From the NCBI GenBank assembly GCA_046293175.1, contig JBKBPM010000001.1, positions 363,446 to 427,445 of the forward strand: 64,000 nt of DNA, written 5' to 3'. This document shows positions 4,375-48,300 of this stretch, in pieces. The DNA is from Minisyncoccia bacterium. Lineage in GTDB: Bacteria > Patescibacteriota > Minisyncoccia > Phycocordibacterales > UBA918. Both the position numbers and the translations under genes were made by a program. The number at the start of each line of letters is the position of its first letter. Position 1 is the stretch's first letter. The notes below the pieces were generated by a model that had not been told where the DNA came from, ran no database searches, and saw only the letters and a list, made by a program, of their open reading frames with translations.

Positions 4375-6006
4375 CTATTTTAACAGACTGTCTTTACCAG
4401 CGTAGATTATTATTGCCTTTTCACTGGTGTCACTTTGGGCAGAAAGTAAACCAACCTTCAAAATAGTGCGTAGCGCCAACGCTTGTTCCTCAAGGCCAGG
4501 AGGATACACCACAATGGTTTTTTGTTCACTACGAGCTTCGTCGACTGTCAGTGAGCTGACTTCAAAACCAGCTTCTTCTAAAGCAAATTTGGTAGCTGCG
4601 CCTGCTCCCGCTTGACCACTTATATTAATCACTTTGATTTGGTTTGGTTGATTAGTTTGTGGTTCTGGTTTAATTTTACTTTCACGAAGTTTTTGGTAGG
4701 CCAAATCTTCAGAAGACATCACAACATCTTCACCAACATTTTCAACTGACACTTCAAAATGAGCAGCGTCCTTCATGATACCAAGAACAGCAAGATACAT
4801 ACCAACTAGTACAGCACCAACCACAATAATACCAAGAAGAATAAACCGGTAATGGAAAAAGAAATTAAAAAGTGCACTAAACTTTTCTCGTATGCCACTA
4901 CCACCACGCCATGAATCAACGATTTCCTGGGCAGTAGCACGCACAGGCGCTGAGACACCAGTATACCGCTTGACTACCATGGTTTGTTTGGACACGCCAC
5001 CACGTTCATGAAGTGGCACGTATGGAGCTTCGTGAACATTAACACCTGAAAGAGCTAGCATCCGATCAATGTAACGACGGATGAGCCATAAAGTGATTTT
5101 GACTCCAATGAAGAGTATAAGGAGTGTGATAAGTATGGTGGTATAGGGAATCACCCAAAAATAGGTTGTGCTCGTGACATACTTTTTACCATCTTCACCA
5201 TAGCCAAGTGTAGCTACTGCCTTGTAACGTCCAATATCATACGCATCAGTGTCCCCTTTCCAAGTAAATGAAAATTTACGAATGCTATTTGGCAACACGT
5301 TACCAAAATGAGTCTGGTGATTAATCGGAATAAAACCACGTTCCTTTCCCCACATATTAAATATTTTGATGTCACCTTGGGGCTGTACGTGGACATTACC
5401 CGTATTCTCAAAACGCATGTAAAGTGTAGCTTCAGGTTTTTGAACTATTCCTTGTTCAGTAGAAAATTCTCGAATATCGCCTGACTCAAACACTTCGCCA
5501 GCTACTCGTACAAAAAAGAGTGAGGTGACAAATTGTGCTGTTTGTACTTGAGACAAATCGCTACCGTCGCTTGGTGGTTTAGTCCCCACGAGAATAGCCG
5601 CATAGTGCCCACCTGGTGCGGCGTTTTCAGGGACTTGGACCTGCAAGGGTATTTCGGCGGTAGCTTGTGGATCAATTACAACTGGATCAGTCGGTACAGT
5701 AATCCACTCTGCCAATGTTTGTCCTTGGGTTTCAGACTCAAAGACTGGAATGAGATCACCTCGGCCGTCTTCTCCAAGGGGCGCAAAGTTTACTGCCTGT
5801 GGGTACACCGTAATTGGATAGTCATTCACATTAATGACCCGTAGCTGACTTGTCCATGTTTGACTGCGATTGGCCTGCATTTCAAATAGTGTCGGTGACA
5901 CTGACAAGGTCTGTGAATCAGCACCTTGCGCAAATACAGCCATCGGCGCCAACATAAATAAGTAAAGAAGAAGTACTCCCTTAATTTTGTTTGAGATTGA
6001 TATCAT
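4375..6006 (-). CDS. CscA-like (DUF916/DUF3324-like) surface protein fused to a C-terminal LytR_C-like domain; two TM helices
   Basis: ORF 4375..6069 (-). The likely start is an internal Met near 6006 (MISISNKIKGVLLLYLFMLAPMAVFA signal). The ectodomain is a paralog of 5981..6967, 22397..23347 and 58657..59715. It is followed by TM1 (VIPYTTILITLLILFIGVKI), a cytoplasmic loop, TM2 (FILLGIIVVGAVLVGMYLAVLGI) and a C-terminal domain resembling LytR_C (IKVINISGQAGAGAATKFALEEAGFEV...IVVYPPGLEEQALALRTIL). Confidence 0.6.
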   Translation of the reverse strand: MISISNKIKGVLLLYLFMLAPMAVFAQGADSQTLSVSPTLFEMQANRSQTWTSQLRVINVNDYPITVYPQAVNFAPLGEDGRGDLIPVFESETQGQTLAEWITVPTDPVVIDPQATAEIPLQVQVPENAAPGGHYAAILVGTKPPSDGSDLSQVQTAQFVTSLFFVRVAGEVFESGDIREFSTEQGIVQKPEATLYMRFENTGNVHVQPQGDIKIFNMWGKERGFIPINHQTHFGNVLPNSIRKFSFTWKGDTDAYDIGRYKAVATLGYGEDGKKYVTSTTYFWVIPYTTILITLLILFIGVKITLWLIRRYIDRMLALSGVNVHEAPYVPLHERGGVSKQTMVVKRYTGVSAPVRATAQEIVDSWRGGSGIREKFSALFNFFFHYRFILLGIIVVGAVLVGMYLAVLGIMKDAAHFEVSVENVGEDVVMSSEDLAYQKLRESKIKPEPQTNQPNQIKVINISGQAGAGAATKFALEEAGFEVSSLTVDEARSEQKTIVVYPPGLEEQALALRTILKVGLLSAQSDTSEKAIIIYAGKDSLLK

Positions 6007-6967
6007 GGTCTTTAAGGTCGCTATGGACGCCATTTCTGATATACATCGGTAAATTTTCGCTATCTTCATGATGAATTGGTTTGCGTCCGTGATAGATATA
6101 CAACAATGTTAAGAACAAACTACCAGCTAAGAGAATACCAAACAGAACGAGAATTGTTTGCAGTGGTACAACAGTAAAAAAGGTTGTGTCATATAAGTTG
6201 GCACGCTGAAGCTCTCCATATTCTACATCAAGAAAGGCTTTATGTCGGCCATACATGCTGCCTTTTGGCACCGAGCCAGTAAAGGCAACTGTCTCTCCAG
6301 CTTTGAGAGTTTTGTTTTCGGTATTAACCAGAATACTAGCTACCTCACGTCCTCTGACGTCATATACAATAATTTCACCTTGTGGTGTAGTGGGCAAATC
6401 ACCTACGTTTTCGAGTTCGTAGCGGACCGGGATAGTGTCGCCACTTGTTATATATCGATCAATTGAGAAGCTATGGAGGCGTAGGTACTCACTACGTACA
6501 TCGGCCATAGAAATACGCATCGTTACGCCTGGTGCACGACCTGCCATAACCGCATTTTCAGCTTCGTCACGTTTATCACCGGAACCAAAACCTATAAATG
6601 CATAGTAGTCACCTTGCACAGCATTGGGGTTAATAGTAAGAGTGACAGGAATTTTGACAGATTCACCTGGTTGTAGTTCGAGTCTAGCGCGCGATACGGC
6701 AATCCAGCTCGTCACATTACGAGTCTGGTCCGTCATCACGGGTGACTCAAAAGATTTTATTGAACCATCTTCACCAAGCGTAATTGGGTGGACTGAGGGG
6801 AATATCTTCACAGGTACCGTACCAGTGTTTGTGATCTTGATACTATCCTCGAGCATATCACGTGGCTTCACCTTGTGTTCAATCACTGGCGGCGTCACTG
6901 TGTACGATTGCGCATAGCTAAAAGTTGGATACGCAAGGAGAGTAAGTAAGAGAAAGAGGTAACGCAT
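5981..6967 (-). CDS. CscA-like (DUF916/DUF3324-like) cell-surface protein with C-terminal TM anchor
   Basis: 328 aa: signal peptide (MRYLFLLLTLLAYPTFSYAQ), about 260-aa ectodomain, TM (ILVLFGILLAGSLFLTLLYIY), and a short charged tail. The size and topology match the DUF916/DUF3324 family (cscA) of Firmicutes. Four paralogs occur in this window. Confidence 0.6.
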   Translation of the reverse strand: MRYLFLLLTLLAYPTFSYAQSYTVTPPVIEHKVKPRDMLEDSIKITNTGTVPVKIFPSVHPITLGEDGSIKSFESPVMTDQTRNVTSWIAVSRARLELQPGESVKIPVTLTINPNAVQGDYYAFIGFGSGDKRDEAENAVMAGRAPGVTMRISMADVRSEYLRLHSFSIDRYITSGDTIPVRYELENVGDLPTTPQGEIIVYDVRGREVASILVNTENKTLKAGETVAFTGSVPKGSMYGRHKAFLDVEYGELQRANLYDTTFFTVVPLQTILVLFGILLAGSLFLTLLYIYHGRKPIHHEDSENLPMYIRNGVHSDLKDHDINLKQN

Positions 6968-6979
6968 ACGTAAATTAGA

Positions 6980-9900
6980 CTAGTAGACAGGTACTGCTAT
7001 ATACACCACTTCGGTTGTATAGATAGCCGCCGGCTGGAGGCCAGTCACCCGTACTCTGTATACAATATCATGAGTATCGTTGGCTGGAATAGGGCTATAC
7101 ATAACTTCAGCCACAGCTGTGTGTAAACCAGCGTAACTATCAAGAGGTGCAAAACGGGTTGAACCACCAGACAGTGTTGCGTCAGTAGTGTGGTAACCAG
7201 TACAACCAGTTGCAGAGGCAAGACAACCCACCGCCCAAGCCACCGGACTAGCATTAGTACCAGAAATTGGAGGTATTGGAGTGCCATAGTCGTTTATGAG
7301 TTGCTGGCGAGCAAACGAGAGGACACGATACCCATCAGTGGCATTGGTGGTGACCGCTAGTCGGTGTGCCGCTAAGGCATCGGTGTTAATTGGAATAGAA
7401 CCAAAGCTGACCGTAGACGGTGTTGTTGTTACCGTAGTCATGACACCAGCTGTGGTTGTACCACTAGGAAGACCACTGATACTCAATGTGAGTTTTGGTG
7501 TCTCTGTCACTAGACTTGGCAGTGTCTCACCATTTGCAGCTGCTACTGGCATATCCTCAAACACCTCATAGAGTCTAAAGTAGTACACGGCTCCAGCGCG
7601 CGCGGCTGCATGTCGTAGATAAAAGGCAAACTCGGTATCAGCTCCTGCTAGATGAGTATACCCCGTAGTATACGTGGGCGATTCATTATGAGTACCACAA
7701 CCAGATCCTACGCCTGAGGCGCAACTATTGGCATCTGATAGGACTTTAGTGGTGATTGTTGCATTGTCTGTACCGCCACCATCTACATAACACCAGGTTG
7801 AGGTGGCGGTACAACTTGAAGTTGCAACCACATCATGGGGTGACGTAAACGCCGGTGATTCATCATATTGCAGTTTAAACTTTATATCCTGACCAACTAC
7901 AGATTTACGTTGTCCAACTATGACACGAAGCGCAAATTCATTTCCATTTTGTACTTCGACTGGTGCATTTATTTCACTAGCCAGTGGTGTGACTGGAGTC
8001 TCGTTTTCAGCATCTTCATAAAAGCGCCAACGTTTAGTTTGTGGGGAGTAGCCAGCTGTTCGAATCTGTGGGTAGTTAAAGTAACCGTCTAATGGAGTAC
8101 CGTCGCTGCGCACCATGCGGAAGCAATAGGTACTCCGTGAAATGGCTCCATTATGCTCAATAAACCAATCGTACTCAACATCTTCGCCGGGATCAACCAA
8201 ATAAGGATTAGCTGGCGCGGGATTCTCTTCCACCAAACTTCCCGCTCGATCAGCTACCGAAATAAGGAGATCGCCTCCAGTTGGTGGGTTCGTGCTCAAC
8301 ATTGTACCATTGGTGGTACCCGTGGCTGCATAACCACGCCAAATGCCACTGCCGTTTGCGGCATCAAGGTCATTCCAGGTGCCAACGGTCGAACACGAGG
8401 TAGCTCGCAAACCATACTGCAGCTTAAAATCATACAAACCGGCCGGCAGGTTGGCATTGGCCACTCGCATCGTCATCCGGAGTCGAACCACATCTCCATC
8501 ACCAAGTGGCTCGTCTGCAATTGAGATGGGATTATTTTCGCCGAGATCAGATACACCAGGAGGCCATGGATCAGTTGGAGTTAGATTGTTATTGTTAGCG
8601 TAGAACCTAAAGTAATTTTGTCGAATCGCCAAACCGGATATTGGCCACTCAACAATTTCAGTACGATAGGTCATTTCACCTGACGCTTCACTGCGCCACA
8701 GTTCGTAGGTGGATGTCCCGGTAATTCGAGCACCGGCAAACACCAGCGGGAACGTGGTATTGGCACCAACCACACGTGTGTTGGCAAAAATGGAGGCATT
8801 GTTGGTCGCATCAATTGGTGAGAAAATTGAAATTGATAATGTAACCGGTTCTGTACCAGCGTTGGTTGTACCATTGGTGCGCTGCACATCCATTGCGCCG
8901 GCACTGGTTTGGAGGTTTTCAATAATCCATGCCACTGATGTGTGACCGCTCGGAGTGGTTGCCGCCGCCTCAAGTCGAAACGAAACTGCTCCAATACTTG
9001 ATAACCAAACTTCGTGACCAAAGTTGTTAACGTTACCTAAGGCATTCATCCGTTTTTGAGTATGGATAAAGGCGCGAGCGAGACTGTTTACCGGTGTAGG
9101 AATTGATTCAGTTTCAACCACACCAGCCGCTGTGTAGGTATGTTCAATTCGTTGTACTTGCCAGTTTATGCCAGTAAACTCAACCACTGCGTAACTCACA
9201 TTAATAATTGCTCCACCAGCATTACGGTTAAATACCGGAGCAGTACTGGTCGGACTCCATTGCGAAGTGGTCTGTCCCGCATAATAAAAGTTTCGTGCAG
9301 TATCACGGTTTTCTACGCCGGTAATAAAAACGACCACGTCGGCATTATCGGTGATAGTCCCAAGACTGGTTCCAGTCGCAACGAGTGCAGCACTCGCTAA
9401 GTTCACACTTCCTACCCCACGCACTTTCATTTCATTGTCGGTACCAGCATCACCTATAAATTCGATAATCTCCCAGCTCACCCGCGTGTTACCAGTTGCC
9501 GCTGGTGGGCGGGAAATAGTAAAGCTGGTTGGTAAATTCGCTGACGATATATAGGCAGTTACATCATCTGCATTTTGAGCACCACCACCGGCAGTGGTTC
9601 GTCCAGGGCCAGTATTGTGAGTGTCGGTGATACGAACAAAGGCTGTTGTTGTACTTAAAGGTGCTGTGTAATCAACACCAGCAGTAAAGGTTTGTGAAGT
9701 ACCGATAATTGTTGCTGTTCCGCGCTGGACTTTGAAGTCACGTTTTGGTGCGGTGGTTAATTCAGCGTAGTTGGTGTACGTGAGAGGTTCACCATTATTG
9801 GTTAAGCGGAAACAATATGTCGTATTAAAACCAGTAATATTCGTTGAGGTAATACTAAATTCGTATTCAGTAAATTCGGTGGTACTCATCGCAAGCGCCG

Positions 9901-12900
9901 AGGTAGTACTCGTGGTATCACGTTGGCCGGCATTTGCGCTAATAAACGAAGGATTAGGGTCAGTAATACCGCCGTTTGCGACTGAAATGTTAGTGGTGTT
10001 ATTGCCGTTGGTGAGATTGGCACTATCAAACATATTCCAGTCATCAGCCGCATCGCCAACCGGTGTCCATACACTCACCGCACTACAGGTAGTAACCCGT
10101 GGCCCGAATTCCAGTCGATAGGCAGTTGAAACTGACGCTGCGGCTCCTTCGTTTGAGAGTGCCACCCGCAAACGAATTGGTGAATTGGCTGGATGATCAG
10201 TCAAAATGGTATTTTCCGTGCCGCCTGTGGCCGATAATGCGTCAGTTTCAATACCGGTGTCATTGCGCCAGTGGTAGCCGGTTTGGGTAATCACTGGACC
10301 GGACAGCGTTGTTGTACCCGCAATTGCAATTGGTGTTGATGGTGAAACTGATCCGGCTGAAACAACCACATCATTGGCTGGTGAAGAAATTTCTATTTGG
10401 ACAGTGTCGCCATTACTAGCGGTACTCAAAACATCAAATACCACGTACAAACACAATGCTTGTGTGGTAGTTACTGTCACAGAATCACTAAATGTTGAGG
10501 TACCATTGTCGGCAGTAAAGCCGTCGGTGTCAGTAGCCCCGTACTGCGGTTCTGTTCCGGCATACGTCTCACTCGCACAGTTGTACGGTGCGGTGGTATC
10601 GAGGTCGTAACGAAGTCGAATGTTATCAAGATCGTTGAGGGCATCAACAGTACCATTTTCGGCAATCAAAATACTTGTAATGTTGCGACTGCTCGTATTT
10701 TCGCGGAATACAAACTGACCACCAACATGTTGGTTGGTTGATGGTACAAGAAGTGATGTTGCTTGGGTTCCAGAAGCGGTAACACTAACATCTGCCGCAA
10801 TTGTAACACTGGGGAATTGTGAATAGACCGGTAAGGGTGTACCAGCATTAGTAACTCGAAAACAGTACGTAGTTCCTTCAACTGCTGTAGTTGAAGCGAC
10901 AATAGCATACTCAAGTTCAACAAAATTCGCATTGGAGAGTGTAAGTGATCCGGTTTGTGAAGAAATTTCGCGCATACCACCATTTGGTGTGAGGAATGTG
11001 GTATTCTCATCAGCCACGCCACCGTTGGCAACAGCAATATTTGTCGTATTATCACCTTCAACGAAGTTAGATGATAGTGACATATTCCAGGCATCATCAG
11101 TCGCACCCACATCAGTCCATGAAGTTATATCGGTACAGTTTGGTGCAGCTTCACCATATTCAAGCCGGAACGTAGTTGCAGCACTTGAAAGGGATCCTTC
11201 GTTAGATACTTGTAGACGAAGTCGACGTGGTGAATTTACCTGCAGAGCCGGAATTGGTGTATCAGCCACACCAGCAGTAGCTGACAAAGCGGCTGTTTCT
11301 ACACCAGCATCAGTACGCCAGTGGTAGTGTGTTTGGGTCAGTTCATCATTTTGAATAAGACTAGAAGAGGCGGTACGAACTGGGCTCACCGGCATCACAT
11401 CTACACCACCAGTAACGATAATATCGTTATTCGGATCTTCTACAGAGACGGCGAGCGTATCTCCATCAAGCACACTTTCAAGCACGTCAACCACCACATA
11501 GAAACACATCGCTTGGGTAGTTGAGATGCTCTGGAGTCCAGAAAAGCTCGCAGTTCCATTAGGTCCCGAAAAGCCATTGGTATCTGTAATCCCAAACTGT
11601 GTCTCGCTACCACTGTACGATTCACTGGCACAGTCATACGGTGCCGTGGTATCAAGATCGTAGAGTACTTTGATATTTTTGACGTCAGTACTACCATCAA
11701 CAGTACCTCGTTCACTAATCACAATGGCAGTCACATTACGACTACTCTGACTTTCACGAATCGCATACTTCCCACCAGTATAGACGTCTGTGGTACCACC
11801 AACGATAGTACTCACCGCAGTACCCGTGGCATAAAGTTTAGTAATTGGCGCAATATCAGCGAGCGTATCACCAAAATAATCATCAGGTGCTGGGTCTGTC
11901 CATGACACATAAATGCGCTCATCACTCATGAGATTAATATCAAGACCACGATGATCACCAGGAGTGACTCCAGAGACTGTCTGTTCTGCACTCCAGGAAG
12001 ACATGGCTGAAGTAGATGTAGACCAGTAAATTCCACCTGTTGTGGCTGTAGCTGGCGTCGAGCGTAACACATACGCCACATACACCGTACTGGTATTGGT
12101 ATCAAGGCCAATTGCAACGGTGTTGAGTCCCCGGGTAGTGTTGGTAAAGACAGCCGTTGTACCAGTCCATGATCCAGAAGAAAACTTGGCGGTACGCACA
12201 TCGTGGTCAAGTGTTGTGTAATTGTCATGATCGGCACCATAAGCGAGATACACATCACCGGAATTTGGGTCAACTACTGCAGCCATACTTGTGTCGTAAG
12301 TGGCACTTTCAACCGCGGCACCATCAATGGTCGTCCAGCTTGCTGACCAGCTTGATCCATTCCATACGCGAGAACGAATAACGTTGGCACTAATGTCACG
12401 ATTAATAAGCAGTACATCTCCTGTGGTTAGGGCGAGAAGAATATTTGTATCGTTATCAAGATCCATAAAGCGTGCGCCACCCGGCTCATCCCAACCAGTG
12501 GTAGCAGTACATCCGGAATCGGTATCACACCGTACAACAAAAGAGTCAGTGGCATCAGAAATGCCCATAAAAACTTCATTACCGGTATTTTTGGTAATCG
12601 TGACGTTATTCTGACCACTGGTAAATGTACCTGTCTGACCCGAATTACTACTCGTGTCTACTGGTGAGCTACCTAAAAGGAGGGTGTCTGTCGAGGTATC
12701 AAGCGCGTTGTAATAGAGACGATCGGTGGCCGCAGCAGTTTCCATAGTAGCGATGTGAATGGTAGTACCGTAGTCACCGGGCGTCCACTGGTCATACCAA
12801 ACAGCAATACTTGCACAGTCTGTTTGAGCATCAACCGTTACTGCTCCATTCCACGAACTACCTCCGTTAGTGGTTTTACTATAGACACAGGTGTTCGCAG

Positions 12901-13141
12901 CATCACGATAAAACTTGTACCCAACCTGATCAGAAATGAAAACCGTTTGGGAACCGCCAAAGAAAAAGGAGTTGGCATCGGTACTCACGGAGTTATCAAT
13001 AGTAGTTTGAGCCGCTTCGGCAAAACTGGGCCAAACCATGTACTCCAAAAACGAGAAGTTGAGGAAAACCGTAACAAACAACAACGAGCCAGCTATAACT
13101 TGTCGCCATCCATACCAAAAAAACGCTGGAAACCTCCGCAT
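6980..13141 (-). CDS. giant surface protein (2053 aa): BNR-like beta-propeller, four ~120-aa RW...YCFR modules, Cys-rich C-terminal W-G-I-type domain
   Basis: Uninterrupted 6162-nt ORF with an N-terminal signal anchor. Asp-box-like blades (SSWNGAVTV, VWNGSSWSASW, SSGSWTGTTA, MSSWSAEQTV) span about aa 60-430. Repeated modules each begin Y-H/R-W-R-x-D-x-G and end YCFR[VLM].N.G. The C-terminal roughly 200 aa are homologous to the C-termini of the 7450-aa and 625-aa proteins. Confidence 0.85.
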   Translation of the reverse strand: MRRFPAFFWYGWRQVIAGSLLFVTVFLNFSFLEYMVWPSFAEAAQTTIDNSVSTDANSFFFGGSQTVFISDQVGYKFYRDAANTCVYSKTTNGGSSWNGAVTVDAQTDCASIAVWYDQWTPGDYGTTIHIATMETAAATDRLYYNALDTSTDTLLLGSSPVDTSSNSGQTGTFTSGQNNVTITKNTGNEVFMGISDATDSFVVRCDTDSGCTATTGWDEPGGARFMDLDNDTNILLALTTGDVLLINRDISANVIRSRVWNGSSWSASWTTIDGAAVESATYDTSMAAVVDPNSGDVYLAYGADHDNYTTLDHDVRTAKFSSGSWTGTTAVFTNTTRGLNTVAIGLDTNTSTVYVAYVLRSTPATATTGGIYWSTSTSAMSSWSAEQTVSGVTPGDHRGLDINLMSDERIYVSWTDPAPDDYFGDTLADIAPITKLYATGTAVSTIVGGTTDVYTGGKYAIRESQSSRNVTAIVISERGTVDGSTDVKNIKVLYDLDTTAPYDCASESYSGSETQFGITDTNGFSGPNGTASFSGLQSISTTQAMCFYVVVDVLESVLDGDTLAVSVEDPNNDIIVTGGVDVMPVSPVRTASSSLIQNDELTQTHYHWRTDAGVETAALSATAGVADTPIPALQVNSPRRLRLQVSNEGSLSSAATTFRLEYGEAAPNCTDITSWTDVGATDDAWNMSLSSNFVEGDNTTNIAVANGGVADENTTFLTPNGGMREISSQTGSLTLSNANFVELEYAIVASTTAVEGTTYCFRVTNAGTPLPVYSQFPSVTIAADVSVTASGTQATSLLVPSTNQHVGGQFVFRENTSSRNITSILIAENGTVDALNDLDNIRLRYDLDTTAPYNCASETYAGTEPQYGATDTDGFTADNGTSTFSDSVTVTTTQALCLYVVFDVLSTASNGDTVQIEISSPANDVVVSAGSVSPSTPIAIAGTTTLSGPVITQTGYHWRNDTGIETDALSATGGTENTILTDHPANSPIRLRVALSNEGAAASVSTAYRLEFGPRVTTCSAVSVWTPVGDAADDWNMFDSANLTNGNNTTNISVANGGITDPNPSFISANAGQRDTTSTTSALAMSTTEFTEYEFSITSTNITGFNTTYCFRLTNNGEPLTYTNYAELTTAPKRDFKVQRGTATIIGTSQTFTAGVDYTAPLSTTTAFVRITDTHNTGPGRTTAGGGAQNADDVTAYISSANLPTSFTISRPPAATGNTRVSWEIIEFIGDAGTDNEMKVRGVGSVNLASAALVATGTSLGTITDNADVVVFITGVENRDTARNFYYAGQTTSQWSPTSTAPVFNRNAGGAIINVSYAVVEFTGINWQVQRIEHTYTAAGVVETESIPTPVNSLARAFIHTQKRMNALGNVNNFGHEVWLSSIGAVSFRLEAAATTPSGHTSVAWIIENLQTSAGAMDVQRTNGTTNAGTEPVTLSISIFSPIDATNNASIFANTRVVGANTTFPLVFAGARITGTSTYELWRSEASGEMTYRTEIVEWPISGLAIRQNYFRFYANNNNLTPTDPWPPGVSDLGENNPISIADEPLGDGDVVRLRMTMRVANANLPAGLYDFKLQYGLRATSCSTVGTWNDLDAANGSGIWRGYAATGTTNGTMLSTNPPTGGDLLISVADRAGSLVEENPAPANPYLVDPGEDVEYDWFIEHNGAISRSTYCFRMVRSDGTPLDGYFNYPQIRTAGYSPQTKRWRFYEDAENETPVTPLASEINAPVEVQNGNEFALRVIVGQRKSVVGQDIKFKLQYDESPAFTSPHDVVATSSCTATSTWCYVDGGGTDNATITTKVLSDANSCASGVGSGCGTHNESPTYTTGYTHLAGADTEFAFYLRHAAARAGAVYYFRLYEVFEDMPVAAANGETLPSLVTETPKLTLSISGLPSGTTTAGVMTTVTTTPSTVSFGSIPINTDALAAHRLAVTTNATDGYRVLSFARQQLINDYGTPIPPISGTNASPVAWAVGCLASATGCTGYHTTDATLSGGSTRFAPLDSYAGLHTAVAEVMYSPIPANDTHDIVYRVRVTGLQPAAIYTTEVVYIAVPVY

Positions 13142-16302: not shown

Positions 16303-16318
16303 AGCAAAATTGGGTTAG

Positions 16319-18034: not shown

Positions 18035-18035
18035 A

Positions 18036-19172: not shown

Positions 19173-20327
19173 TTAGAACACTGGGGTTGCTACGTATGTC
19201 AGCGTAGCGGTATAGTCGTTCCCCGCTTCCTGGAGCGGAGAAATTTCAACTTTGTAACCTACGCGGGTACTACCAACATTTGGAGTGGTCCCGTCTGAAG
19301 GTCCATTGTGTCGAAATACTTCAACTGGTGTGGTTGATGCAGACACAAACAGTTGCCCGGTTGTGCTTGCAGCAAATGGATCCGTCAAAGCATCGGTGAG
19401 TGAAGAGTCTTCTGTGGTTATACCCCAGTGACCCCACGTATTCTCATCGCTGATTGAACCGGTTGGCGGTTGCCACGCCACTGGCGTGTTAGTGTACGCA
19501 CCATCGATAAATCCATCAATATCAGCACCAGTTGAAGAGAGCAACTGCTGATCAACTTGCACAGTTACGGCAAAACCGTAGCTCGCATTTGTTGACACAG
19601 ACAATTGCTGAGCTGATGTCGTGGCTGTACCCTGTGTCAAAACACCAAATGGAATTGATGTGGCAGAGGTTGAGCCAGTAATTGCTTCTTGGTTAACTGT
19701 TCCAGTAGCGACACCGCTTACGGTAAATGTAAAGCTAGTATCAACTGCAGCAGTAACAACGACTGGTGAGATGATAGCTACTCGAGTAGTTCCACTATCC
19801 GCTGAACCCGCAGTAATGTCGATTTCGTATGAACCGACAGCTGGGTTGGTCAGCTGAGCATTACCAGTGGCACCAAAAGTGGCATTGGTTCCGATCTGGA
19901 TAGTAGTTGTACCGTTGGCCGGCAACGAAGCACCATCACCAGCACAGAACTCGAGGGTAATGGTGTTGGTACTTGTTGAAAAACCAACCTCATCAGTGCC
20001 TCCACATCCTGCACCAATAGACAAATCTGTACCGTCATCAGTGATGTCGACGTCATCAAATGCGACTGCTCCAAGAGCGAACGGCCCGTTAGAGAAATCG
20101 ATGACAATTGATTCACCGTTTGCAACACCAGAAGGTGTAACAAAGCTGATGGTGTGATTTGATGGCACACTCGGAGCTGAATCCGAGAGCGTATCACTTA
20201 CTAATCTGACATTTGCGGCCTCCGCAAAGCGGAACGTTGGTAGACCCAAAGACCATAACAAGATGGCGAGTCCAACAACAGAAGCCAGTGCTTGGAGTAG
20301 TCCGAACGTTGAATTCGTTCTACTCAT
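19173..20327 (-). CDS. WxL-like cell-surface protein (N-terminal SNHTIxF domain, C-terminal W-G-[IL] beta-rich domain)
   Basis: ORF 19173..20399 (-). ATG verified at 20327 (MSRTNSTFGLLQALASVVGLAILLW signal). The C-terminal half (SFTFTVSGVATG...TWGHWGITTEDSS...TATLTYVATPVF) carries two motifs reminiscent of the WxL domain. A paralog lies at 59876..60997. Confidence 0.65.
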   Translation of the reverse strand: MSRTNSTFGLLQALASVVGLAILLWSLGLPTFRFAEAANVRLVSDTLSDSAPSVPSNHTISFVTPSGVANGESIVIDFSNGPFALGAVAFDDVDITDDGTDLSIGAGCGGTDEVGFSTSTNTITLEFCAGDGASLPANGTTTIQIGTNATFGATGNAQLTNPAVGSYEIDITAGSADSGTTRVAIISPVVVTAAVDTSFTFTVSGVATGTVNQEAITGSTSATSIPFGVLTQGTATTSAQQLSVSTNASYGFAVTVQVDQQLLSSTGADIDGFIDGAYTNTPVAWQPPTGSISDENTWGHWGITTEDSSLTDALTDPFAASTTGQLFVSASTTPVEVFRHNGPSDGTTPNVGSTRVGYKVEISPLQEAGNDYTATLTYVATPVF

Positions 20328-20626
20328 GACTCTACATTGTATTAGCCAGGCACTACTGCGAGAGTTAGACAATGCAGTAACGTGACTCGCGACCGTCATC
20401 GTTCACAGTGTGGTCTCCACCCCACTTCTGTATAGACGAGCGACAGGCATACTAATGCTGTAACAGCGGCTGTTCTGTCCTAGCATACCATTGTGGTGGG
20501 AGCTAGCAGTATCATTAAAGAGATACCTCCAACATTAGTACTATTTCATTGTAGCCTGCTCCCCGAAACAAAAGAGAAACTTATACACAAAATTTATTTG
20601 GTTTGTCCCATTCAATTGAATATTGC

Positions 20627-27195: not shown

Positions 27196-27207
27196 CGTTT
27201 GTTTATT

Positions 27208-30371: not shown

Positions 30372-33300
30372 CTACGGTGACACCGGAGTAAAGACGTTGA
30401 TACCAGCGTGAGGTGCACTATTGACCCCAAACGGAACCTCAATACCCCAATAGATATTTGTGGTAACCGCTGGTGATGGTACCGTTGGCTTGGCAAGGTT
30501 AACATCTAGTGTCACCGGTGTTGATGATGACAAGAGTGAACAAACCGAACAGCCAGCGTACGTGAAGGTACTGGTGGCAAATTTTTGCTGATTTGCTGGA
30601 ATAATTGAGCTGCTACCGTCACTGAGGTCTGTTCCTTCGACTTCGATGTCAAAGGCGACGTTACCAGTGTTTGCAATGGTGGTAGTTGGGTTGTACGAAC
30701 CAGTGTTGTCCTGTGGTGCAAGTGATCCGTAATTGATACCAGAGTCAACGCTTAGGGCGCGCACGGTGTAAAGCTCAACACCAGCAGGTGGTGTGGCCAT
30801 ATCATATCCACCACTCGTATCACTCACCTCAAGGTACGCCAACCAAGTGTCACCGTTATCGTCGGTTGCTTCAGCGTGGAAGAAGATGTCGGCATAACAC
30901 TCAAAGGTACAGGTGTTGCCACTACAATTGGTAAATGAACACTTATTACCAATTGTCGAAACATAACAGTTGTTGTTGTTTGGCGTACAACTTGGACCAA
31001 CGCTACTTCGATAGATGGTACTTGTTCCATTTACCAAGTCAGCCACCCCATTAAAGTCAGTCACCGTACCAGTCGCATAGACTCGAGTAGTAGTACCTGG
31101 TAAGAGAGAGATATCAAACCCGTTGTTAAGTGCCACCGTACCGAAAGTTGGATCAAATTGGAGTCCAAGCTCAGCGACTTCGCCATAGAAATCAATTGGT
31201 GTTGCATCATTAACCACACGGAAACAGTAATTGTCGGTAGCGTTGAGGGTTGGGGTGATGACGTACTCAAGTTCGGTATAGTTATCGGCCGGCACCGTCA
31301 GTGCGCTCGACATATTTGATGGACTTTCAACTACCATACCTGGTGTAAACTGACCATTAATAGTCGTCAGTAAGTCAGTGGTTGGTGCCCCATCAGTAAC
31401 CTGAGTTGAAGTCTGCATACAGATTGGTGAAGAGCCACAGGAAGCTTGATTTGGTACTGCCACATAACTGCCGCTTGATACCGCTTCGCAACTCGGTGAA
31501 GTGCCTTTTGCTGCATATTGGAGTCGGTACGTTTGTCCAGTAACCGTCAATCCAGAATTTTCGATACCGATACGGAGACGACGTGTCACACCAGGGAGCC
31601 CACTGCCCAGAGCATTTTCTGCAGAAAGCCAGGTGGCTCCGCCATAGGTTTGTTTGGCACCAAATGTAATTCCTGGATTGATTGGACCGCGATCACTGAC
31701 ATGATAACTATCCCAGGCACCATTTTGCACCCAGAAGGTGAAGCCCATGCCACCGCTGGTGTACGAACTATCGGTAGCTGATGTGGTGGCAACGAGCGTA
31801 CCTGAAGGGTTATAAAGGTACACATCAATACGGTTGTTGGTTTGCCAATCGATTTCCACTTGGTACCAGCCTGTTGTGTAGGTCACCGTGGTAGAAGCCA
31901 AACGAGTACCAGAGATATCGTTGTCAGTCACATTCTTTGAGAGTGAAAGACGATCGGTACCAAAGAGCTCAAGACAGACCGCGTAGTTGTTGTTGGCAGT
32001 ACCTGGTGTCTGTACCCCAAAGAGCGCACAACCTTCATCAGCCGCGCCACCAGATATGTCAACGTACTGTCGATACCGGATAATCTGTCCTTGCGCGGTG
32101 AGGTTACCGGTACGGAAGATACCATCAGTCGTTCGACCTGATTTGTTTTGGGCTTCAAGGGCATAAGCACCACCATAGACTGGTGTTGTATCAGTTTGGA
32201 AGAGGCTTGTATCACCACTGTATTCAGTAATATTATTATCTTCAAAGTCATCACTGAAACTAAAAGTATTGGCAGCCGAACTTGAACTGGTTGAACTCGC
32301 ATTACCAAAGTACATAAAGAGATTAGTGTACGCATTTGGAGCTAGACTTGGTACTTCTACCCACACCACTGCTTCGGTACTGGCGACATACCGATCCACC
32401 CAGAAATCAAGTGGGGTAAGACCATCGCTACTGGTGAATCGGAGATCATCGAAGTCGGACTGCATCGCACTATCATACGGCACGGTGACGCGTACAGTTG
32501 TCGTTGCAAAGGTTGTTGCCGTAGTGTTTTCGACACGTACTCGCTCACGGTAAGTCCAAGCAAAGTTATACCACTCAGAATTTGGTGCCCCTTCTCCCCC
32601 ATCATCGGCTCGCCAACGAGAACTGGTTTGTGAGGTCAAGAGACAACCACTGTCATCAAAGCGAATCGCTCCACAGAGGCCACCAATGTCACTGTCAAAG
32701 GCTTCCCCGCCAATATTGCCGTAGTTACCACTAAAGCGCCACGCATTGGTCGTACTTCCCACCAAGGCTACGTTTGTACCGGTCCAACTATTACCAGCAT
32801 TAAAGCCAACGGCGGTAAAGATCTTTGAAGCGTTCGCATTTAATGCAGTGTCAGTAAGACTAATTAACGTACCACCATTTACCGCGAGATTGTAGTACGC
32901 ATTACTGAGATTGGTGATAGTGGGCGCGTTACTGAAGGAGAGACCACTACTATTAAGCGCATCAAAGCGGTAGTACTGGGCGTTAAATGTTCCGCCAGTA
33001 ACAAGGAATGCGTGGGTACCAGTACTGATAGCCCCAATGGTAGTACTTGCGCTCGCAGCACCGAGGATAGCGAGACTGCCGCTTTGTACCGTGGTGGTAC
33101 TATTTTGTGCCATGCGGACAGTCACCGCACGCTGACTCGGTCCGACCAGTGCAGCACCATCAAAGTCCGTACTGTATGACCAGTATTCACTGGTGGTGGC
33201 AACCGTAAAGTCGCCGTAGATATTAAGTGTACCATCAACAGCTCCATGATCCTGTGAGTAGAGTGAAGCTCCGGTACCAAGCGTCGTAGTAGCCACCGTA

Positions 33301-45300: not shown

Positions 45301-48300
45301 AAATTAGCATTTGATTCCCGAATAAGGGTTGGTGAAGAAAAGTCAGCATCGTCATCAATCACCACTTCGTATGATACGAGGTCGCCCAGTTCATCTGTAG
45401 CGGCAAATTCAAAAGTTGGTGACGTTGAAGCCATCTGTTCGTTGTCAAATGGTGCAATCAGTGTCGGTTCAAGTGGTGCCGCGTTGGTAATCAACCGTGG
45501 GTAGTTGTCATAGCTATTCAACACAGAACCATCAGCATACACGACACGGAAACAGTAACTCGTATTAGCAGCTGCATTGTTGTTTTGAAGTACAAAGTCC
45601 CATTCAGCATTTTGACCTACCAATAATGCATTACGATTGAGATTGGTAGGGTTGTACTCTTCATACGTCTCAGGGAACGTACTACTAGCCAGCAAAGTGC
45701 TTGGTAGCACTCGACCATCACTGATGATTTCTTCAGAGGCAACGGCATAAAAGCCCGTAGGGTTTGATTTGTTATTAAAGGTGGTTTGTATCCAGCCGTC
45801 ACTACGAACGATATTTGAAATAGATACTTCATCAATACCACCGGTAAAAAGTCGTCCACCTAATGGATCTTGTCCAATATCAAGAGCTGCATAGGTACCC
45901 GTCGAGTGGGTTACCGCATTAGTTCCACTTGCTACCCCCACCCCGGAGTGACGCCACATTACCGCTCGAGTCGGCTCAATGGTCAAGGTGGCCATAAATG
46001 GCGCACTAGAAGTTGGATAGGTCGGCCCCCCTGTCCAGTTGTACGTAGCAGCAGCATCACGCCAGTGGTAGCCGAGACGATTTGTATTCGATGGAATATT
46101 GATACCACTGGTTTCACCTGACGCGCGAGTCATTAAAAGACCATCAAAGGCGCCTTGGTTACCGGTTGAAGAAGCCCAGATTTGCCAGGTTGAGTTGAGG
46201 AAAGAACGATTAAAGCTTGAACCAAGATCGATATACTCATTGGTTCCATCAATTGCTTGGAAGCGACCAACAATACCGTTCTGACGATCGCCCACTTCCA
46301 TATTTTGTGATGTACCATTACTATTGCCGGTACTATCAATAAATTGTGGTGCTGTGGCAGTTGGACTTTGATCAAGGTGGTACACCGCCAAGAAGTTGTT
46401 ACTCCATACATTATTGCGACCATAGGTAGCTGAGACACTATAGCCACTGGCTGCACCATTGCCGTAGTACACATAAAAGTCAGTGTCGGTTGTTGTCGAA
46501 AGCGATGGGGCTCGGAAGTGGAGCTCACCAATATCACTACCCGTATCAAGCGAGACTAGTTCATATGGTACTTCAGTTACTCCGTCACTGGTGGTGATGC
46601 GGATATCGTCACCGTCACTTTGCACATTATCAAAGAATTGCGCAGGAAAATCATCGAGATTGAGGTAAACCGGGAAGTTTGTTACATCATTACCTGAAAC
46701 TAAAGAACTCTCAACTGTCACCTTAACCCGCCGTGGCCAAGAGGCACTGTACCAATCAGTACCAACGATTGAGTTCGCATATCCGCGCCAGGTTGCCGTT
46801 GTACTTCCAACCGCACCCACGTCTTGCCAACCGGTAGCAATATTACAGGAGACACCAGTTGCGTACTGTAACTTGAAGGCGGACGTACTCGTCGGCAACG
46901 TCACATTTGCCCCCTCAAGTGAGAGACGAAGACGGATCACATCGTTGAGACTGACCGCTTCTGCTGAAGTGAGTGCAGTATTTTCTGCCACATCGGTACC
47001 TCCTACCGGCCAGGCATCCGTCGGGGTAAAGACACTCGCGTTTGTATACCAGCGAAAATCATTTTGTACGAGTTTTGGCTTACGCACCCAAGCCACTGAC
47101 CAATCATCAAGACTCGCACTGGTGGCGCCAAACGTGGTCAAGGTGGCCTCAAGACAAATCTGACTGTATGTGGTGGTAGAAAGACCAGTCAAGTTAAGAG
47201 GCATAGCCGTACTGTCAAAACCTGCACTATTTCCTGCCAGTGCTCCGTCTGGTATATAGGTGTCACAAGTGGTCGTACTCGTGTATTTAAGCTTTACCGT
47301 TACGTCCGTTCCAAACGGCTCAGTTGAAGAGAACGTAAAATCACCCCAGGTTTGCTGGTTTGGCACCGCCGAAAAGACAATCGGCTGCGTCGTCACAGTA
47401 CTTTGAGTAAATTGGTAGCGCTTAGCAGCCATTTCAAACGTTTCAAATGGAGCACCGGCTATTGAAGATGGGTTTGGTACTATTGATTGTTTCGTTGACC
47501 AGCTGGTTCCGTTCCAGTACGTTGACTCTATTTCATCCCCCGCCACAGCATCATCGTGTGAGACTGAGACGATGGTGCCATCTCCAGCTCGTTCTGTCTG
47601 CACCCAAAATACACCAGTACCCGCTCCGACACCTGTAATGGGCTGAGGGGCTGACCATGATGATGTCGCATACACGCTATACCGTGCATTAGTTGTGTCC
47701 GAATAGGCGGCGAGCGTATACCCCGAGCGACCTGCTACCGTCTCATATTCACAATCAATTGGTCGCCCAGCCTGAGAGTTACCAGCCGTAGAAAAATCAT
47801 TATAGGTGCCGGTCCAGATACTACCATCCCACCGGATCGCTCCTGGACGAGCCGAATCATTGATGTAACACAACACCATGTTGTCTGAGTTTGGATCAGC
47901 CGAGAGTGTTCCCCATTCAAAGTCATTTTGCAGTGCCTGGGTGGCAGGAGCGGTCCAATCAAGACCCGTCCAAGTACGATAGATGAAACTATTTCCCGTA
48001 CCATTGGTGACTGCTACAATCGCTTGATCACCGGAAGTTTCATACTTCACCCCAATACCAGCTCTCGCTTCTTGACCAGCCTGTACCGAACCCATGACCC
48101 GACTATTACCAAAAGCCGAACCGTCCCACACGAGCATCTCGTAGTTGTTACCAACCGCCGCTCCACTATCGCGTACTACCAAAATCATTTCATCTGAGGT
48201 TGGATCAGACGCAATCTCAACATGGTTACAGACGTTGACGAGGCTGGTAGTAATACTACTTGTAGCTGACCAGGTAGAACCATTCCAAATACGATAGACC

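What the first reader, a model, noticed from the sequence alone, without database searches (positions are those of the whole stretch)
6980..13141. Second giant ORF (2053 aa) built from the same module set: propeller plus repeated RW...YCFR units plus the shared C-terminal domain
Four ~120-aa units each begin with a Y-H/R-W-R-[NT]-D-x-G-x-E-T-x-A-L-S-A-T motif and end with a T-Y-C-F-R-[VLM]-x-N-x-G-x-P-L motif. For example, YHWRTDAGVETAALSATAG...TYCFRVTNAGTPL and YHWRNDTGIETDALSATGG...TYCFRLTNNGEPL.

The same unit recurs in the 7450-aa protein (FRWYTNASVFTPTDAWP...; ...NYCFRVVNDATPIDFYG). This indicates a shared, shufflable domain vocabulary between the two giant genes. They are paralogous mosaics rather than independent acquisitions.
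Basis: seen in the sequence. Interest (0 to 1): 0.55.

Follow-up and report, generated by a model that had tools for sequence, protein, structure and literature searches.

The report
Giant pilus-linked adhesin with repeats
The 2053-residue gene from an uncultured ultra-small (CPR/Paceibacteria) bacterium encodes a conserved secreted surface protein with four real copies of an uncatalogued Ig-like domain and a pilin-type tail, which makes it a candidate host-attachment subunit of the recently described CPR "Pam" pilus.

Summary
The ORF (6980-13141, minus strand, 2053 aa) and its four repeat units are real. Pairwise shuffle z-scores are 7-50 (one pair 2.6) and profile-profile E-values run from 3e-9 to 3e-83.

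The description needs correcting:
- The units are about 185 aa, not about 120.
- Only two units carry the YHWR[NT]D start motif.
- The recent tandem duplication is a 350-aa two-domain block (X+Y).

The unit ("Y") models as an Ig-like beta-sandwich (pLDDT 96.8). It has no Pfam or NCBIfam family and no close PDB fold. It occurs in about 3,900 representative proteins, with up to 21 copies in one protein.

The 7450-aa neighbour has only two Y units, one of them split by a nested 340-aa insertion. It does not share the propeller, X, M or C-terminal domains.

The gene is not a fluid mosaic. At least 120 full-length orthologues (48-97% identity) keep the same architecture, and each unit is orthologous by position.

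The main new point concerns the C-terminal 175 aa. This domain is a sub-threshold but consistent match (37 of 37 sequences) to NCBIfam CPR_Pam_pilin_C, and it is shared with two pilin-like paralogues in the window. It sits in an 11-gene cluster conserved in three other genomes examined, with WxLIP-like membrane-anchored proteins immediately downstream.

Best reading: an adhesin-pilin fusion displayed by donor-strand complementation.

The parts
13010..13141 (-). aa 1-44. N-terminal hydrophobic leader ending ...PSFAEA/AQ; probably a Sec signal peptide.
   Evidence: Read from the translation. The AEAA motif is conserved in the orthologue consensus. No signal-peptide predictor was run.
11858..13009 (-). 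aa 45-428. BNR/sialidase-like beta-propeller head.
   Evidence: PF13088 BNR_2 passes its gathering score in orthologues P0045 (33.7 bits) and P0069 (31.7 bits) but not in this protein. The region aligns at 41% identity with the P0045 propeller, which is duplicated in the long subfamily. Recurrent G-S-S-W motifs and invariant Cys pairs are present.
11348..11857 (-). aa 429-598. X1 domain; type unknown and not modelled, unrelated to Y.
   Evidence: X1 against X2: hhalign E 5e-73. No relation to Y. No Pfam hit.
10787..11347 (-). aa 599-785. Y1 unit (YHWRTD ... TYCFRVTNAGTPL).
   Evidence: AlphaFold2 model with pLDDT 96.8 and pTM 0.92; nine-strand all-beta sandwich. Repeat statistics.
10298..10786 (-). 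aa 786-948. X2 domain, second copy of X.
9740..10297 (-). aa 949-1134. Y2 unit (YHWRND ... TYCFRLTNNGEPL).
8630..9739 (-). aa 1135-1504. M region: conserved, no internal repeat, no known family.
   Evidence: hhalign of sub-segments finds no repeat. No Pfam, NCBIfam or PDB sequence match. Recurs in 35 of 149 Y-containing representatives.
8045..8629 (-). aa 1505-1699. Y3 unit (YFRFYANN ... TYCFRMVRSDGTPL).
   Evidence: Closest to the split Y unit of the 7450-aa protein.
7502..8044 (-). aa 1700-1880. Y4 unit (RWRFYEDA ... VYYFRLYEV), the most divergent; carries four invariant cysteines.
   Evidence: Invariant C1777, C1784, C1807 and C1815.
6983..7501 (-). aa 1881-2053. C domain: a conserved beta-strand (LTLSISGL) followed by a Pam-pilin-type truncated-Ig domain.
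   Evidence: NF058581 CPR_Pam_pilin_C hits 37 of 37 isolated C domains; this protein scores E 8.2e-4 over profile positions 3-148 of 148. Model pLDDT 94.1. Top PDB fold matches are chaperone-usher pilin domains. The HMM hits the C-termini of o19173_20399 and o59876_60997 at about E 1e-25.
19173..20399 (-). Pilin-like paralogue, 408 aa: signal peptide, N-terminal domain, then the same C domain. In the same conserved cluster.
   Evidence: C HMM E 1.3e-25. NF058581 E 2.5e-5. Orthologues at 59-64% identity sit in the same position in CP060229.1 and CP060228.1.
59876..60997 (-). Second pilin-like paralogue, 373 aa, followed directly by a WxLIP-like gene (58657-59760).
   Evidence: C HMM E 7.6e-26. 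NF058581 E 8e-4 over the full profile. 54% identical to o19173_20399.
5981..6967 (-). WxLIP-like protein, 328 aa: signal peptide, probably two beta domains (inferred, not modelled), C-terminal transmembrane helix. Starts 12 nt downstream of the giant gene. Candidate chaperone or anchor.
   Evidence: The family profile hits PDB EfmWxLIP1 (9i25_C, 9i1y_A) at E 7.6e-4. Paralogous to o4375_6069 and o58657_59760. Adjacency is conserved.
4375..6069 (-). Second WxLIP-like protein, 564 aa, with a LytR_C domain.
   Evidence: Pfam WxLIP_PGBD E 6.2e-5 (23.5 bits, cut-off 27.3) and LytR_C E 1.4e-8. Conserved in synteny.
45480..47078 (-). Split Y unit of the 7450-aa protein (aa 1883-1987 plus 2328-2415), with a 340-aa nested insertion.
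   Evidence: A DUF2341 hit lies inside the insertion at aa 2037-2095.
31161..31637 (-). Second Y unit of the 7450-aa protein (aa 7030-7188), closest to Y1/Y2.
   Evidence: HMM E 5.5e-20 and 1.6e-29.

Best explanation
The gene encodes a Sec-secreted, roughly 2,050-residue modular surface protein of a Candidatus Paceibacteria (CPR/Patescibacteria) bacterium.

**Domain order.** Signal peptide, BNR-type propeller, X-Y-X-Y, M, Y-Y, then a C-terminal pilin-type domain.

**The repeats.** The four Y units are true homologues. They belong to a widespread but uncatalogued Ig-like beta-sandwich family. Invariant cysteine pairs in each unit suggest disulfide stabilisation. The units most likely act as the rigid arm, and possibly as ligand-binding modules, of an adhesin.

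**The C-terminal domain.** The last ~175 residues are a conserved beta-strand followed by a truncated-Ig domain of the Pam-pilin type. PamA and PamB of Ca. Mycosynbacter amalyticus assemble by donor-strand exchange.

**Proposed mechanism (inferred, not shown).**
1. After export, the C domain is held by strand insertion from one of the membrane-anchored WxLIP-like proteins encoded immediately downstream.
2. The C domain is then joined by donor-strand complementation to the pilin-like subunits encoded in the same conserved cluster.
3. The propeller/X/Y/M arm is thereby presented at or along a thin pilus to bind a host-cell surface glycan or protein.

Whether it sits at the tip, like FimH, PapG or PamT, or is interspersed along the filament is unresolved. 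Unlike PamT, it seems to keep a linker-like strand.
For: **Shown**
- The repeats are real and homologous.
- The Y1 model has pLDDT 96.8 and is all-beta.
- No Pfam or NCBIfam family covers Y: at most 3 of 101 isolated units hit any family, all at E>0.006. No PDB fold matches below E 1e-3 and TM-scores are at most 0.42.
- Y occurs in 3,904 representative proteins, with up to 21 copies in one.
- At least 120 orthologues have a fixed architecture and uniform 45-70% identity along the whole length.
- Cysteine pairs are invariant in every extracellular domain.
- C domain:
  - 37 of 37 isolated C domains hit NF058581 CPR_Pam_pilin_C over the full profile (best E 4.2e-10; this protein 8.2e-4). Six of 37 also hit NF058579 PamT.
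  - The model has pLDDT 94.1.
  - The top 50 PDB matches are dominated by chaperone-usher pilin domains (PapGII pilin domain 2wmp_B, CfaB, FimA/F/G, CsuA/B, EcpA) and also include the TasA fibre. These are the comparators used for the Pam C-terminal domain in bioRxiv 10.64898/2026.03.03.709456.
- The same C domain ends two 373- and 408-aa two-domain pilin-like proteins in the window (E ~1e-25; NF058581).
- Among 149 Y-containing representatives, 54 carry this C domain. It is at the extreme C-terminus in 53 of the 54, and a Y unit lies directly before it in 51 of the 54.
- The 11-gene order is conserved in CP060229.1, CP060228.1 and an ENA contig at ~50% protein identity. The order is: a dockerin-like gene (o21285-like), pilin-like gene, five further genes, the giant gene, WxLIP-like, WxLIP-like with LytR_C, then o3862-like.
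- The downstream family matches EfmWxLIP1 (PDB 9i25, 9i1y) at E 7.6e-4 and Pfam WxLIP_PGBD.

**Established knowledge**
- Pam pili assemble by donor-strand exchange with membrane-anchored chaperones (preprint).
- WxLIP is predicted to insert a strand into its partner domain (PMC10599100).

**Inferred**
- The secretion signal, the strand exchange itself and the host-binding role.
Against: - All matches to the Pam families are below NCBI's curated cut-off: 19.5 bits for this protein and about 40 bits at best, against a cut-off of 55.
- The whole-protein NCBIfam scan reported nothing.
- The fold matches to pilin domains are weak (E 4e-3 to 8e-2, TM-score 0.25-0.43) and could reflect a generic Ig-like fold.
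- No direct comparison with PamA/B/T sequences or coordinates was possible.
- The downstream proteins were not modelled, so their PapD- or WxLIP-like fold rests on sub-threshold sequence matches.
- The Pam preprint found Pam pilins mainly in Saccharimonadia and Microgenomatia. It does not mention Paceibacteria or large adhesins.
- Nothing here shows expression, filament formation or binding.
- The function of the Y units themselves is not tested.
Confidence: 0.55

Rival explanations
1. WxL-type, non-filamentous display. The C domain does not polymerise. It is simply clamped to the cell surface by the WxLIP-like membrane protein encoded downstream, with a strand from that protein inserted into the C domain. 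This mirrors what is proposed for the large WxL proteins of Enterococcus and Lactobacillus. On this reading the protein is a stand-alone fibrillar adhesin.
For: - Cluster logic matches WxL loci: a large and a small protein share a C-terminal domain and lie next to a protein built as signal peptide, two Ig-like domains and a transmembrane helix (PMC10599100).
- Pfam WxLIP_PGBD gives E 6.2e-5 in o4375_6069.
- The family profile hits EfmWxLIP1 in the PDB at E 7.6e-4.
- A LytR_C cell-envelope domain is present in o4375_6069.
Against: - The C domain has no Pfam hit at all, so none to a WxL-domain family, and no W-x-L motifs.
- Its only family matches are the Pam pilin and PamT models.
- The small paralogues look like two-domain Pam pilins rather than WxL-only proteins.
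- This reading overlaps with the best explanation rather than excluding it, since Pam and WxL systems may be related.
Confidence: 0.25
2. The two giant genes are paralogous mosaics assembled from one shared, actively shuffled domain vocabulary: propeller, RW...YCFR units and a common C-terminal domain.
For: - Y units occur in both genes.
- The split unit in the 7450-aa protein is Y3-like, at 41.6% identity.
- At deep divergence, the heads on the Y-Y-C core vary.
Against: - Only Y is shared. The propeller, X, M and C HMMs do not hit the 7450-aa protein.
- The C-termini are unrelated.
- The architecture is fixed in at least 120 orthologues.
- Units are orthologous by position in 100 of 100 cases.
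- Y is a common mobile domain, found in 3,904 representative proteins.
Confidence: 0.12
3. A surface-tethered glycosidase. The BNR propeller is a catalytic sialidase-like head and the X/Y/M domains are carbohydrate-binding modules. The main role would be degradation of host glycans rather than adhesion.
For: - PF13088 BNR_2 hits in orthologues.
- Some weak fold matches of Y are to Ig-like accessory domains of glycoside hydrolases (GH66, GH123).
- A GH18 gene lies elsewhere in the window.
Against: - BNR_2 covers only part of its profile and fails its threshold in this protein.
- No catalytic family was matched in Pfam, NCBIfam or PDB sequence searches.
- No carbohydrate-binding-module family was hit by any of the 101 Y units above noise.
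- This reading does not explain the pilin-type C domain.
Confidence: 0.08

Closest known systems
Pam pilus pilins of CPR bacteria (PamA/PamB/PamE and tip pilin PamT; Ca. Mycosynbacter amalyticus; bioRxiv 10.64898/2026.03.03.709456; NCBIfam NF058581 and NF058579)
   Same: - CPR-specific and Sec-exported.
- C-terminal truncated-Ig domain matched by the same NCBIfam models, below threshold but in 37 of 37 sequences and over the full profile.
- A conserved beta-strand lies directly before that domain, as the Pam linker does.
- Paired cysteines.
- Encoded with two-domain pilin-like proteins and with membrane-anchored proteins that appear to have two beta domains.
   Different: - The ~150-aa nine-strand N-terminal domain of Pam pilins is replaced here by ~1,830 residues: propeller, two X, four Y and M.
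- The lineage is Paceibacteria, where the preprint did not report Pam pilins.
- Scores are below the curated cut-off.
- The neighbourhood holds cohesin/dockerin-like genes rather than the ATP-synthase context described for pamA.
- No structure or filament is shown here.
WxL clusters of Firmicutes (large WxL protein, small WxL protein and WxLIP = DUF916-DUF3324-TM; PMC10599100; PDB 9i1y/9i25 EfmWxLIP1)
   Same: - Same cluster logic: a large protein with N-terminal binding domains and a small protein share a C-terminal domain.
- Next to them is a protein with a signal peptide, beta domains (probably two) and a transmembrane helix, which here gives sub-threshold matches to WxLIP_PGBD and EfmWxLIP1.
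- Strand insertion is predicted as the mode of attachment.
   Different: - The C domain is not a WxL domain: no Pfam hit and no W-x-L motifs.
- The organism is a CPR bacterium.
- The small partner has two domains, like Pam pilins.
Two-domain tip adhesins of chaperone-usher pili (FimH, PapG)
   Same: - A receptor-binding N-terminal part is fused to a C-terminal pilin domain that accepts a donor strand.
- The PapGII pilin domain is the top fold match of the C domain.
   Different: - No usher and no outer membrane.
- No sequence similarity.
- The binding part is about ten times larger.
- A linker-like strand seems to be retained.
Fibrillar adhesins with Ig-like stalk repeats (for example the CLIPPER domain, PDB 9ifr)
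   Same: - A giant secreted protein.
- Tandem beta-sandwich domains that probably form a stalk beneath a distal binding head.
- 9ifr is the top, though weak, fold match of Y.
   Different: - Only four Y units, interleaved with other domains at fixed positions, rather than a long homogeneous array.
- No LPXTG motif was seen in the translation and no sorting or secretion-system domain was matched in Pfam/NCBIfam.
- Unusually strong conservation for an adhesin.

Membership tests
Pam pilus pilin (NCBIfam NF058581 CPR_Pam_pilin_C) | C-terminal domain matched by the family model above its curated cut-off (55 bits) | tested here: inconclusive
   Isolated C domain: E 8.2e-4, 19.5 bits, profile positions 3-148 of 148. 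All 37 of 37 orthologue and paralogue C domains match, best E 4.2e-10. None reaches 55 bits. The whole-protein scan reported nothing.
Pam pilus pilin | C-terminal domain has a truncated Ig-like fold resembling chaperone-usher pilin domains | tested here: inconclusive
   Model pLDDT 94.1. Chaperone-usher pilin domains and TasA dominate the top 50 PDB matches, but E values are 4e-3 or weaker and TM-scores 0.25-0.43. Coordinates could not be inspected for an open groove.
Pam pilus pilin | Nine-strand beta-sandwich N-terminal domain joined to the C-terminal domain by a single donated linker strand | tested here: not met
   In place of a ~150-aa N-terminal domain there are ~1,830 residues of propeller, X, Y and M domains. 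A conserved alternating strand (consensus LxFxVxGL) does precede the C domain and aligns with the pilin-like paralogues. Its role as a donor strand is untested.
Pam pilus pilin | Encoded with pilin paralogues and membrane-anchored PapD-like chaperones | tested here: inconclusive
   Pilin-like o19173_20399 lies in the same conserved cluster. Two downstream proteins have a signal peptide, beta domains and a transmembrane helix. Their PapD-like fold was not modelled. The sequence evidence points to WxLIP.
Pam pilus pilin | Polymerises into filaments by donor-strand exchange | not testable with these tools
   Needs complex prediction or cryo-EM.
PamT tip pilin (NF058579) | Single truncated-Ig domain lacking a linker strand | tested here: not met
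   Only 6 of 37 C domains give weak hits (best E 0.003). The protein is multi-domain and seems to keep a linker-like strand.
Large WxL protein (WxL cluster) | [quoted passage not shown] | tested here: not met
   No Pfam hit at E<=1. No W-x-L motif in aa 1881-2053.
Large WxL protein (WxL cluster) | Adjacent WxLIP (DUF916-DUF3324-TM) and a small protein sharing the C-terminal domain | tested here: inconclusive
   WxLIP_PGBD scores 23.5 bits against a cut-off of 27.3 in o4375_6069. The o5981 family profile hits EfmWxLIP1 at E 7.6e-4. Small partners share the C domain.
BNR/sialidase beta-propeller (PF13088) | Match to BNR_2 above the gathering score | tested here: inconclusive
   Met in orthologues P0045 (33.7 bits) and P0069 (31.7 bits), cut-off 31.4. 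Not met in this protein (0 families at E<=1). Homology to those orthologues is 41-50% identity.
Any catalogued repeat-domain family for the Y unit (Pfam-A, NCBIfam) | Consistent model match across units | tested here: not met
   101 isolated units were scanned. No family was matched by more than 3 units, all at E>0.006.

The most novel reading that the evidence does not exclude
The Pam pili of CPR bacteria and the WxL surface complexes of Firmicutes may be two versions of one ancient surface-assembly system of single-membrane bacteria. In that system, strand complementation would join proteins that share a pilin-type C-terminal domain, under the control of WxLIP/PamC-like membrane proteins.

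The conserved giant '...Y-Y-C' proteins would then be its host-recognition adhesins in Paceibacteria. If so, host-attachment determinants of this uncultured, very abundant group could be read from genomes and tested.
Probability: 0.25. Interest if true: 0.75.

Novelty: new variant of a known kind. Interest (0 to 1): 0.55.

Why it matters
Paceibacteria (Parcubacteria) are among the most abundant uncultured bacteria in groundwater and sediments. For most of them neither the hosts nor the means of attachment are known.

The Pam pilus preprint of 2026 left open how those filaments recognise a host.

A strongly conserved 2,000-residue protein that fuses a propeller and Ig-like arm to a Pam-type pilin domain gives a concrete candidate for the missing adhesin. 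It is encoded with pilin-like and WxLIP-like partners in a gene order conserved across the genomes compared here.

It also extends the Pam system to another CPR class and points to a possible evolutionary link with WxL clusters.

Separately, the Y unit defines a large domain family (about 3,900 representative proteins) that is absent from Pfam and NCBIfam.

Tried and rejected
**Searches that found nothing**
- Whole-protein Pfam and NCBIfam scans returned no family. Weak domain-level hits only appeared when domains were scanned alone.
- Profile searches of PDB sequences with the full-length alignment and with the C-domain alignment found nothing.
- A word-indexed search with the Y alignment returned only 14, mostly short, proteins. 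The exhaustive search was needed.
- A viral fold search for Y found nothing below E 1e-2.

With a single sequence it found only 3 loci.

**Relationships tested and rejected**

| Relationship tested | Result |
|---|---|
| X domain as a distant relative of Y | One weak HMM hit (9.5e-4), not supported by profile-profile comparison (probability 2-4%) |
| Internal repeats in the M region | None |
| C-terminal domain shared with the 7450-aa protein | None |
| o3862_4335 as a small pilin | No relation to the C domain |
| Extra length of the long subfamily as extra Y units | It is a duplicated propeller |

Full report
**1. The object**

The window is a co-directional stretch of a Candidatus Paceibacteria (CPR/Patescibacteria) genome.
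- The gene just downstream of the finding is 100% identical to an NCBI protein of a 'Candidatus Paceibacteria bacterium' MAG.
- The closest species representatives are Ca. Parcubacteria and Ca. Kaiserbacteria MAGs.
- The ORF is as stated: 6980..13141, minus strand, 2053 aa.
- It has no Pfam or NCBIfam match as a whole protein. A profile of 74 orthologues has no match among PDB sequences.

**2. The repeats are real but were mis-described**

Tiled BLAST shows that aa 430-780 and 781-1131 are a tandem duplication, 40-50% identical, with E down to 5e-37. Each copy holds two unrelated domains:
- X (about 165 aa), and

Two further, more divergent Y units lie at 1505-1699 and 1700-1880.

Statistics:
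- Smith-Waterman z-scores against 500 shuffles are 7.3 to 49.8 for Y-Y pairs, with Y2-Y4 at only 2.6. Y against X or M controls gives -1 to 2.9.
- Profile-profile E-values between orthologue alignments run from 3e-83 to 3e-9.
- An HMM built from 300 Y domains of the top exhaustive-search hits (mostly other proteins) finds all four units at 1e-37 to 1e-56.

Corrections to the description:
- The units are 181-195 aa, not about 120.
- The YHWR[NT]D...ETxALSAT start is present only in Y1 and Y2.
- Y4 ends VYYFR.

**3. What the unit is**

A 101-sequence alignment of Y units gave an AlphaFold2 model with pLDDT 96.8 and pTM 0.92. It is a nine-strand all-beta sandwich with a long irregular segment between strands 5 and 6.
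- Foldseek against the PDB finds nothing below E 1e-3. The best matches (TM-score 0.33-0.42) are generic Ig-like sandwiches: the CLIPPER adhesin domain 9ifr, RhoGDI, cohesins, complement MG domains and GH66 accessory domains.
- The viral library also gives nothing.
- Scanning 101 isolated units against Pfam and NCBIfam gives no consistent family.

The family is nonetheless large. An exhaustive HMM search of 1.84 billion cluster representatives finds 3,904 proteins at E<=1e-3 and 2,098 at E<=1e-10. One protein has up to 21 copies, and protein sizes range from 342 to 7,591 aa. One 13-copy protein is from Chloroflexota. The other named hits are Parcubacteria/Paceibacteria.

Invariant positions are the R of RLR, a Cys-x5-Trp, and Y-C-F-R. 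The two cysteines are invariant in Y1-Y3, and Y4 has four invariant cysteines of its own. This fits extracellular disulfides, although that is inference.

**4. The gene is a conserved orthologue, not a fluid mosaic**

- A search of 5.8 billion proteins returned more than 120 full-length relatives at 48-97% identity, all from Patescibacteria where named. Most are 2025-2076 aa long.
- A sub-family of 2413-2477 aa differs by a duplicated propeller, with the two copies 64% identical. It does not differ in the number of units.
- Identity to the window protein is even along the whole length, 0.39-0.71 per 50-residue block beyond the leader.
- For 25 diverse genomes, each of the 100 units has its nearest neighbour in the same positional class in another genome. 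Y1 and Y2 within a genome are 46% identical, while Y1 orthologues are 53% identical.

The duplications are therefore older than the divergence of these orthologues, and there is no concerted evolution.

**5. Relation to the 7450-aa gene**

That protein has exactly two Y units.
- One is at aa 7030-7188 and resembles Y1/Y2.
- The other is Y3-like but split, at aa 1883-1987 plus 2328-2415. A 340-aa insertion holding a DUF2341 match sits in the loop region.

The propeller, X, M and C HMMs of the 2053-aa protein do not hit the 7450-aa protein. Its C-terminal domain is instead shared with the 625-aa o23440_25317. That domain is unrelated to the C domain of this protein (hhalign E 0.19; no NCBIfam hit).

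The 'same module set' and the 'shared C-terminal domain' are therefore not supported. A shared domain family is supported.

**6. The C-terminal domain gives the functional lead**

- The HMM of aa 1881-2053 hits the C-terminal halves of two paralogous proteins in the window, o19173_20399 (408 aa) and o59876_60997 (373 aa), at about E 1e-25.
- NCBIfam matches both paralogues to NF058581 'CPR_Pam_pilin_C, Pam pilus system pilin subunit'.
- When the C domains of 35 orthologues and the two paralogues are scanned in isolation, 37 of 37 match that model. This protein scores E 8.2e-4 over profile positions 3-148 of 148, and the best member scores 4.2e-10. Six also match NF058579 PamT. All are below the curated cut-off.
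- The AlphaFold2 model of the domain (pLDDT 94.1) finds no PDB fold below E 1e-3. Its top 50 matches are dominated by chaperone-usher pilin domains (PapGII pilin domain 2wmp_B first, then CfaB, FimA/F/G, CsuA/B, EcpA) and include the TasA fibre.

The Pam preprint (bioRxiv 10.64898/2026.03.03.709456) reports the following:
- PamA and PamB are two-domain pilins. Their C-terminal truncated-Ig domain accepts the linker strand of the next subunit.
- It compares that domain with Pap/Fim pilins, including 2wmp.
- It proposes membrane-anchored PapD-like chaperones (PamC/D) and a single-domain tip pilin (PamT).
- It reports the system mainly in Saccharimonadia and Microgenomatia.
- It does not mention Paceibacteria, adhesins or giant proteins.

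**7. Gene context**

The gene lies in a conserved cluster. Three other genomes keep the same order at about 50% protein identity: two complete genomes (CP060229.1 Ca. Nomurabacteria and CP060228.1 Ca. Kaiserbacteria) and a contig of the long sub-family. The order is:
1. a dockerin-like gene,
2. the pilin-like gene (59-64% identical to o19173_20399; C HMM 1e-25 to 1e-31),
3. a membrane-anchored cohesin-like gene,
4. a cohesin/Big_13 gene,
5. a 225-aa membrane protein,
6. a dockerin/EF-hand protein,
7. a TolB-like propeller,
8. the giant gene,
9. a ~330-aa protein,
10. a ~550-aa protein with WxLIP_PGBD and LytR_C,
11. a 160-aa protein, followed by a redoxin.

The ~330-aa protein (o5981_6967) starts 12 nt after the giant gene's stop codon. 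It has a signal peptide, beta domains (probably two; none was modelled) and a C-terminal transmembrane helix. Its family profile matches EfmWxLIP1 of Enterococcus faecium in the PDB (9i25_C, 9i1y_A) at E 7.6e-4.

WxL clusters of Firmicutes have the same logic. They hold a large protein with a C-terminal WxL domain and N-terminal host-binding domains, a small WxL protein, and WxLIP, which is predicted to insert a strand into WxL (PMC10599100). The Pam preprint does not mention WxL.

**8. Broader family**

Among the 149 best Y-containing representatives, 54 carry the Pam-like C domain.
- It is at the extreme C-terminus in 53 of them.
- A Y unit lies directly before it in 51.
- Their architectures share a Y-Y-C core under variable heads: YYC, XYMYYC, PXYXYMYYC and others.

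**9. Mechanism proposed**

*Shown:* domain homologies, the models, conservation and synteny.

*Inferred:* the protein is exported by Sec (leader ending AEA/A). Its C domain is held by a WxLIP-like membrane protein, then joined by strand complementation to pilin-like subunits. The propeller/X/Y/M arm binds a host surface.

Unlike PamT, the protein appears to keep a conserved strand (consensus LxFxVxGL) before the C domain that aligns with the pilin-like paralogues. It could therefore both accept and donate a strand. A tip position is likely on steric grounds but is not shown.

*Rivals:*
- WxL-type non-filamentous anchoring, which overlaps with the best explanation;
- a tethered sialidase-like enzyme, for which support is weak;
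- the mosaic reading, largely refuted.

**10. Verdict**

The repeat itself is an ordinary kind of thing, namely Ig-like domains in a giant surface protein, although the family is uncatalogued. The interest lies in the conserved fusion of that arm to a Pam-type pilin domain, within a conserved pilin and WxLIP-like cluster, in Paceibacteria. I rate it a new variant of a known kind, with interest 0.55.

Noticed in passing
window 45480-47078 (-), 7450-aa protein aa 1883-2415: One Y unit of the 7450-aa protein is split by a ~340-aa nested insertion. A Pfam DUF2341 match lies inside it (aa 2037-2095). The insertion sits in the loop that is irregular in the Y1 model.
   Followed up: partly
window 22397-25317 (-) and 30375-31139 (-): A second, parallel set is present. 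The C-terminal ~250 aa of the 7450-aa protein are shared with the 625-aa o23440_25317 (BLAST E 8e-15). The next gene, o22397_23425, is a remote homologue of the WxLIP-like family (hhalign 97.5%, E 6.4e-12). That C-terminal domain has no family match.
   Followed up: partly
window 58657-60997 (-): A separate pair lies 45 kb from the giant gene: a pilin-like gene (373 aa) followed directly by a WxLIP-like gene (367 aa).
   Followed up: partly
window 14876-19166, 21285-22391, 52812-56968 (-): Several proteins give cohesin-like (o16319, o52812, o18036) or dockerin/EF-hand-like (o14876, o21285, o55052) Pfam matches. Most are conserved in synteny with the giant gene. This may be a cohesin-dockerin style surface assembly in a CPR bacterium.
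   Followed up: no
orthologues P0041-P0048, P0053 and others (2413-2477 aa); L006 10001-17347: A sub-family of the giant protein carries two tandem copies of the N-terminal propeller (64% identical within P0045). The rest of the architecture and the gene neighbourhood are unchanged.
   Followed up: yes
window 13196-14746 (-): The gene just upstream of the giant gene encodes a protein with weak TolB-like beta-propeller repeats and long low-complexity Pro/Thr/Glu-rich ends. It is conserved in synteny but variable in length (516-617 aa).
   Followed up: no
window 25577-28530 (-): A MacB/FtsX-type ABC transporter pair lies between the 7450-aa gene and the o23440/o22397 pair. A link to export or assembly of the surface proteins is possible but untested.
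   Followed up: no
window 5981-6069 (-): The called ORFs o4375_6069 and o5981_6967 overlap by 89 nt. The orthologous pairs overlap by 32-62 nt in the two complete genomes, so the true start of the downstream gene is probably further in.
   Followed up: no
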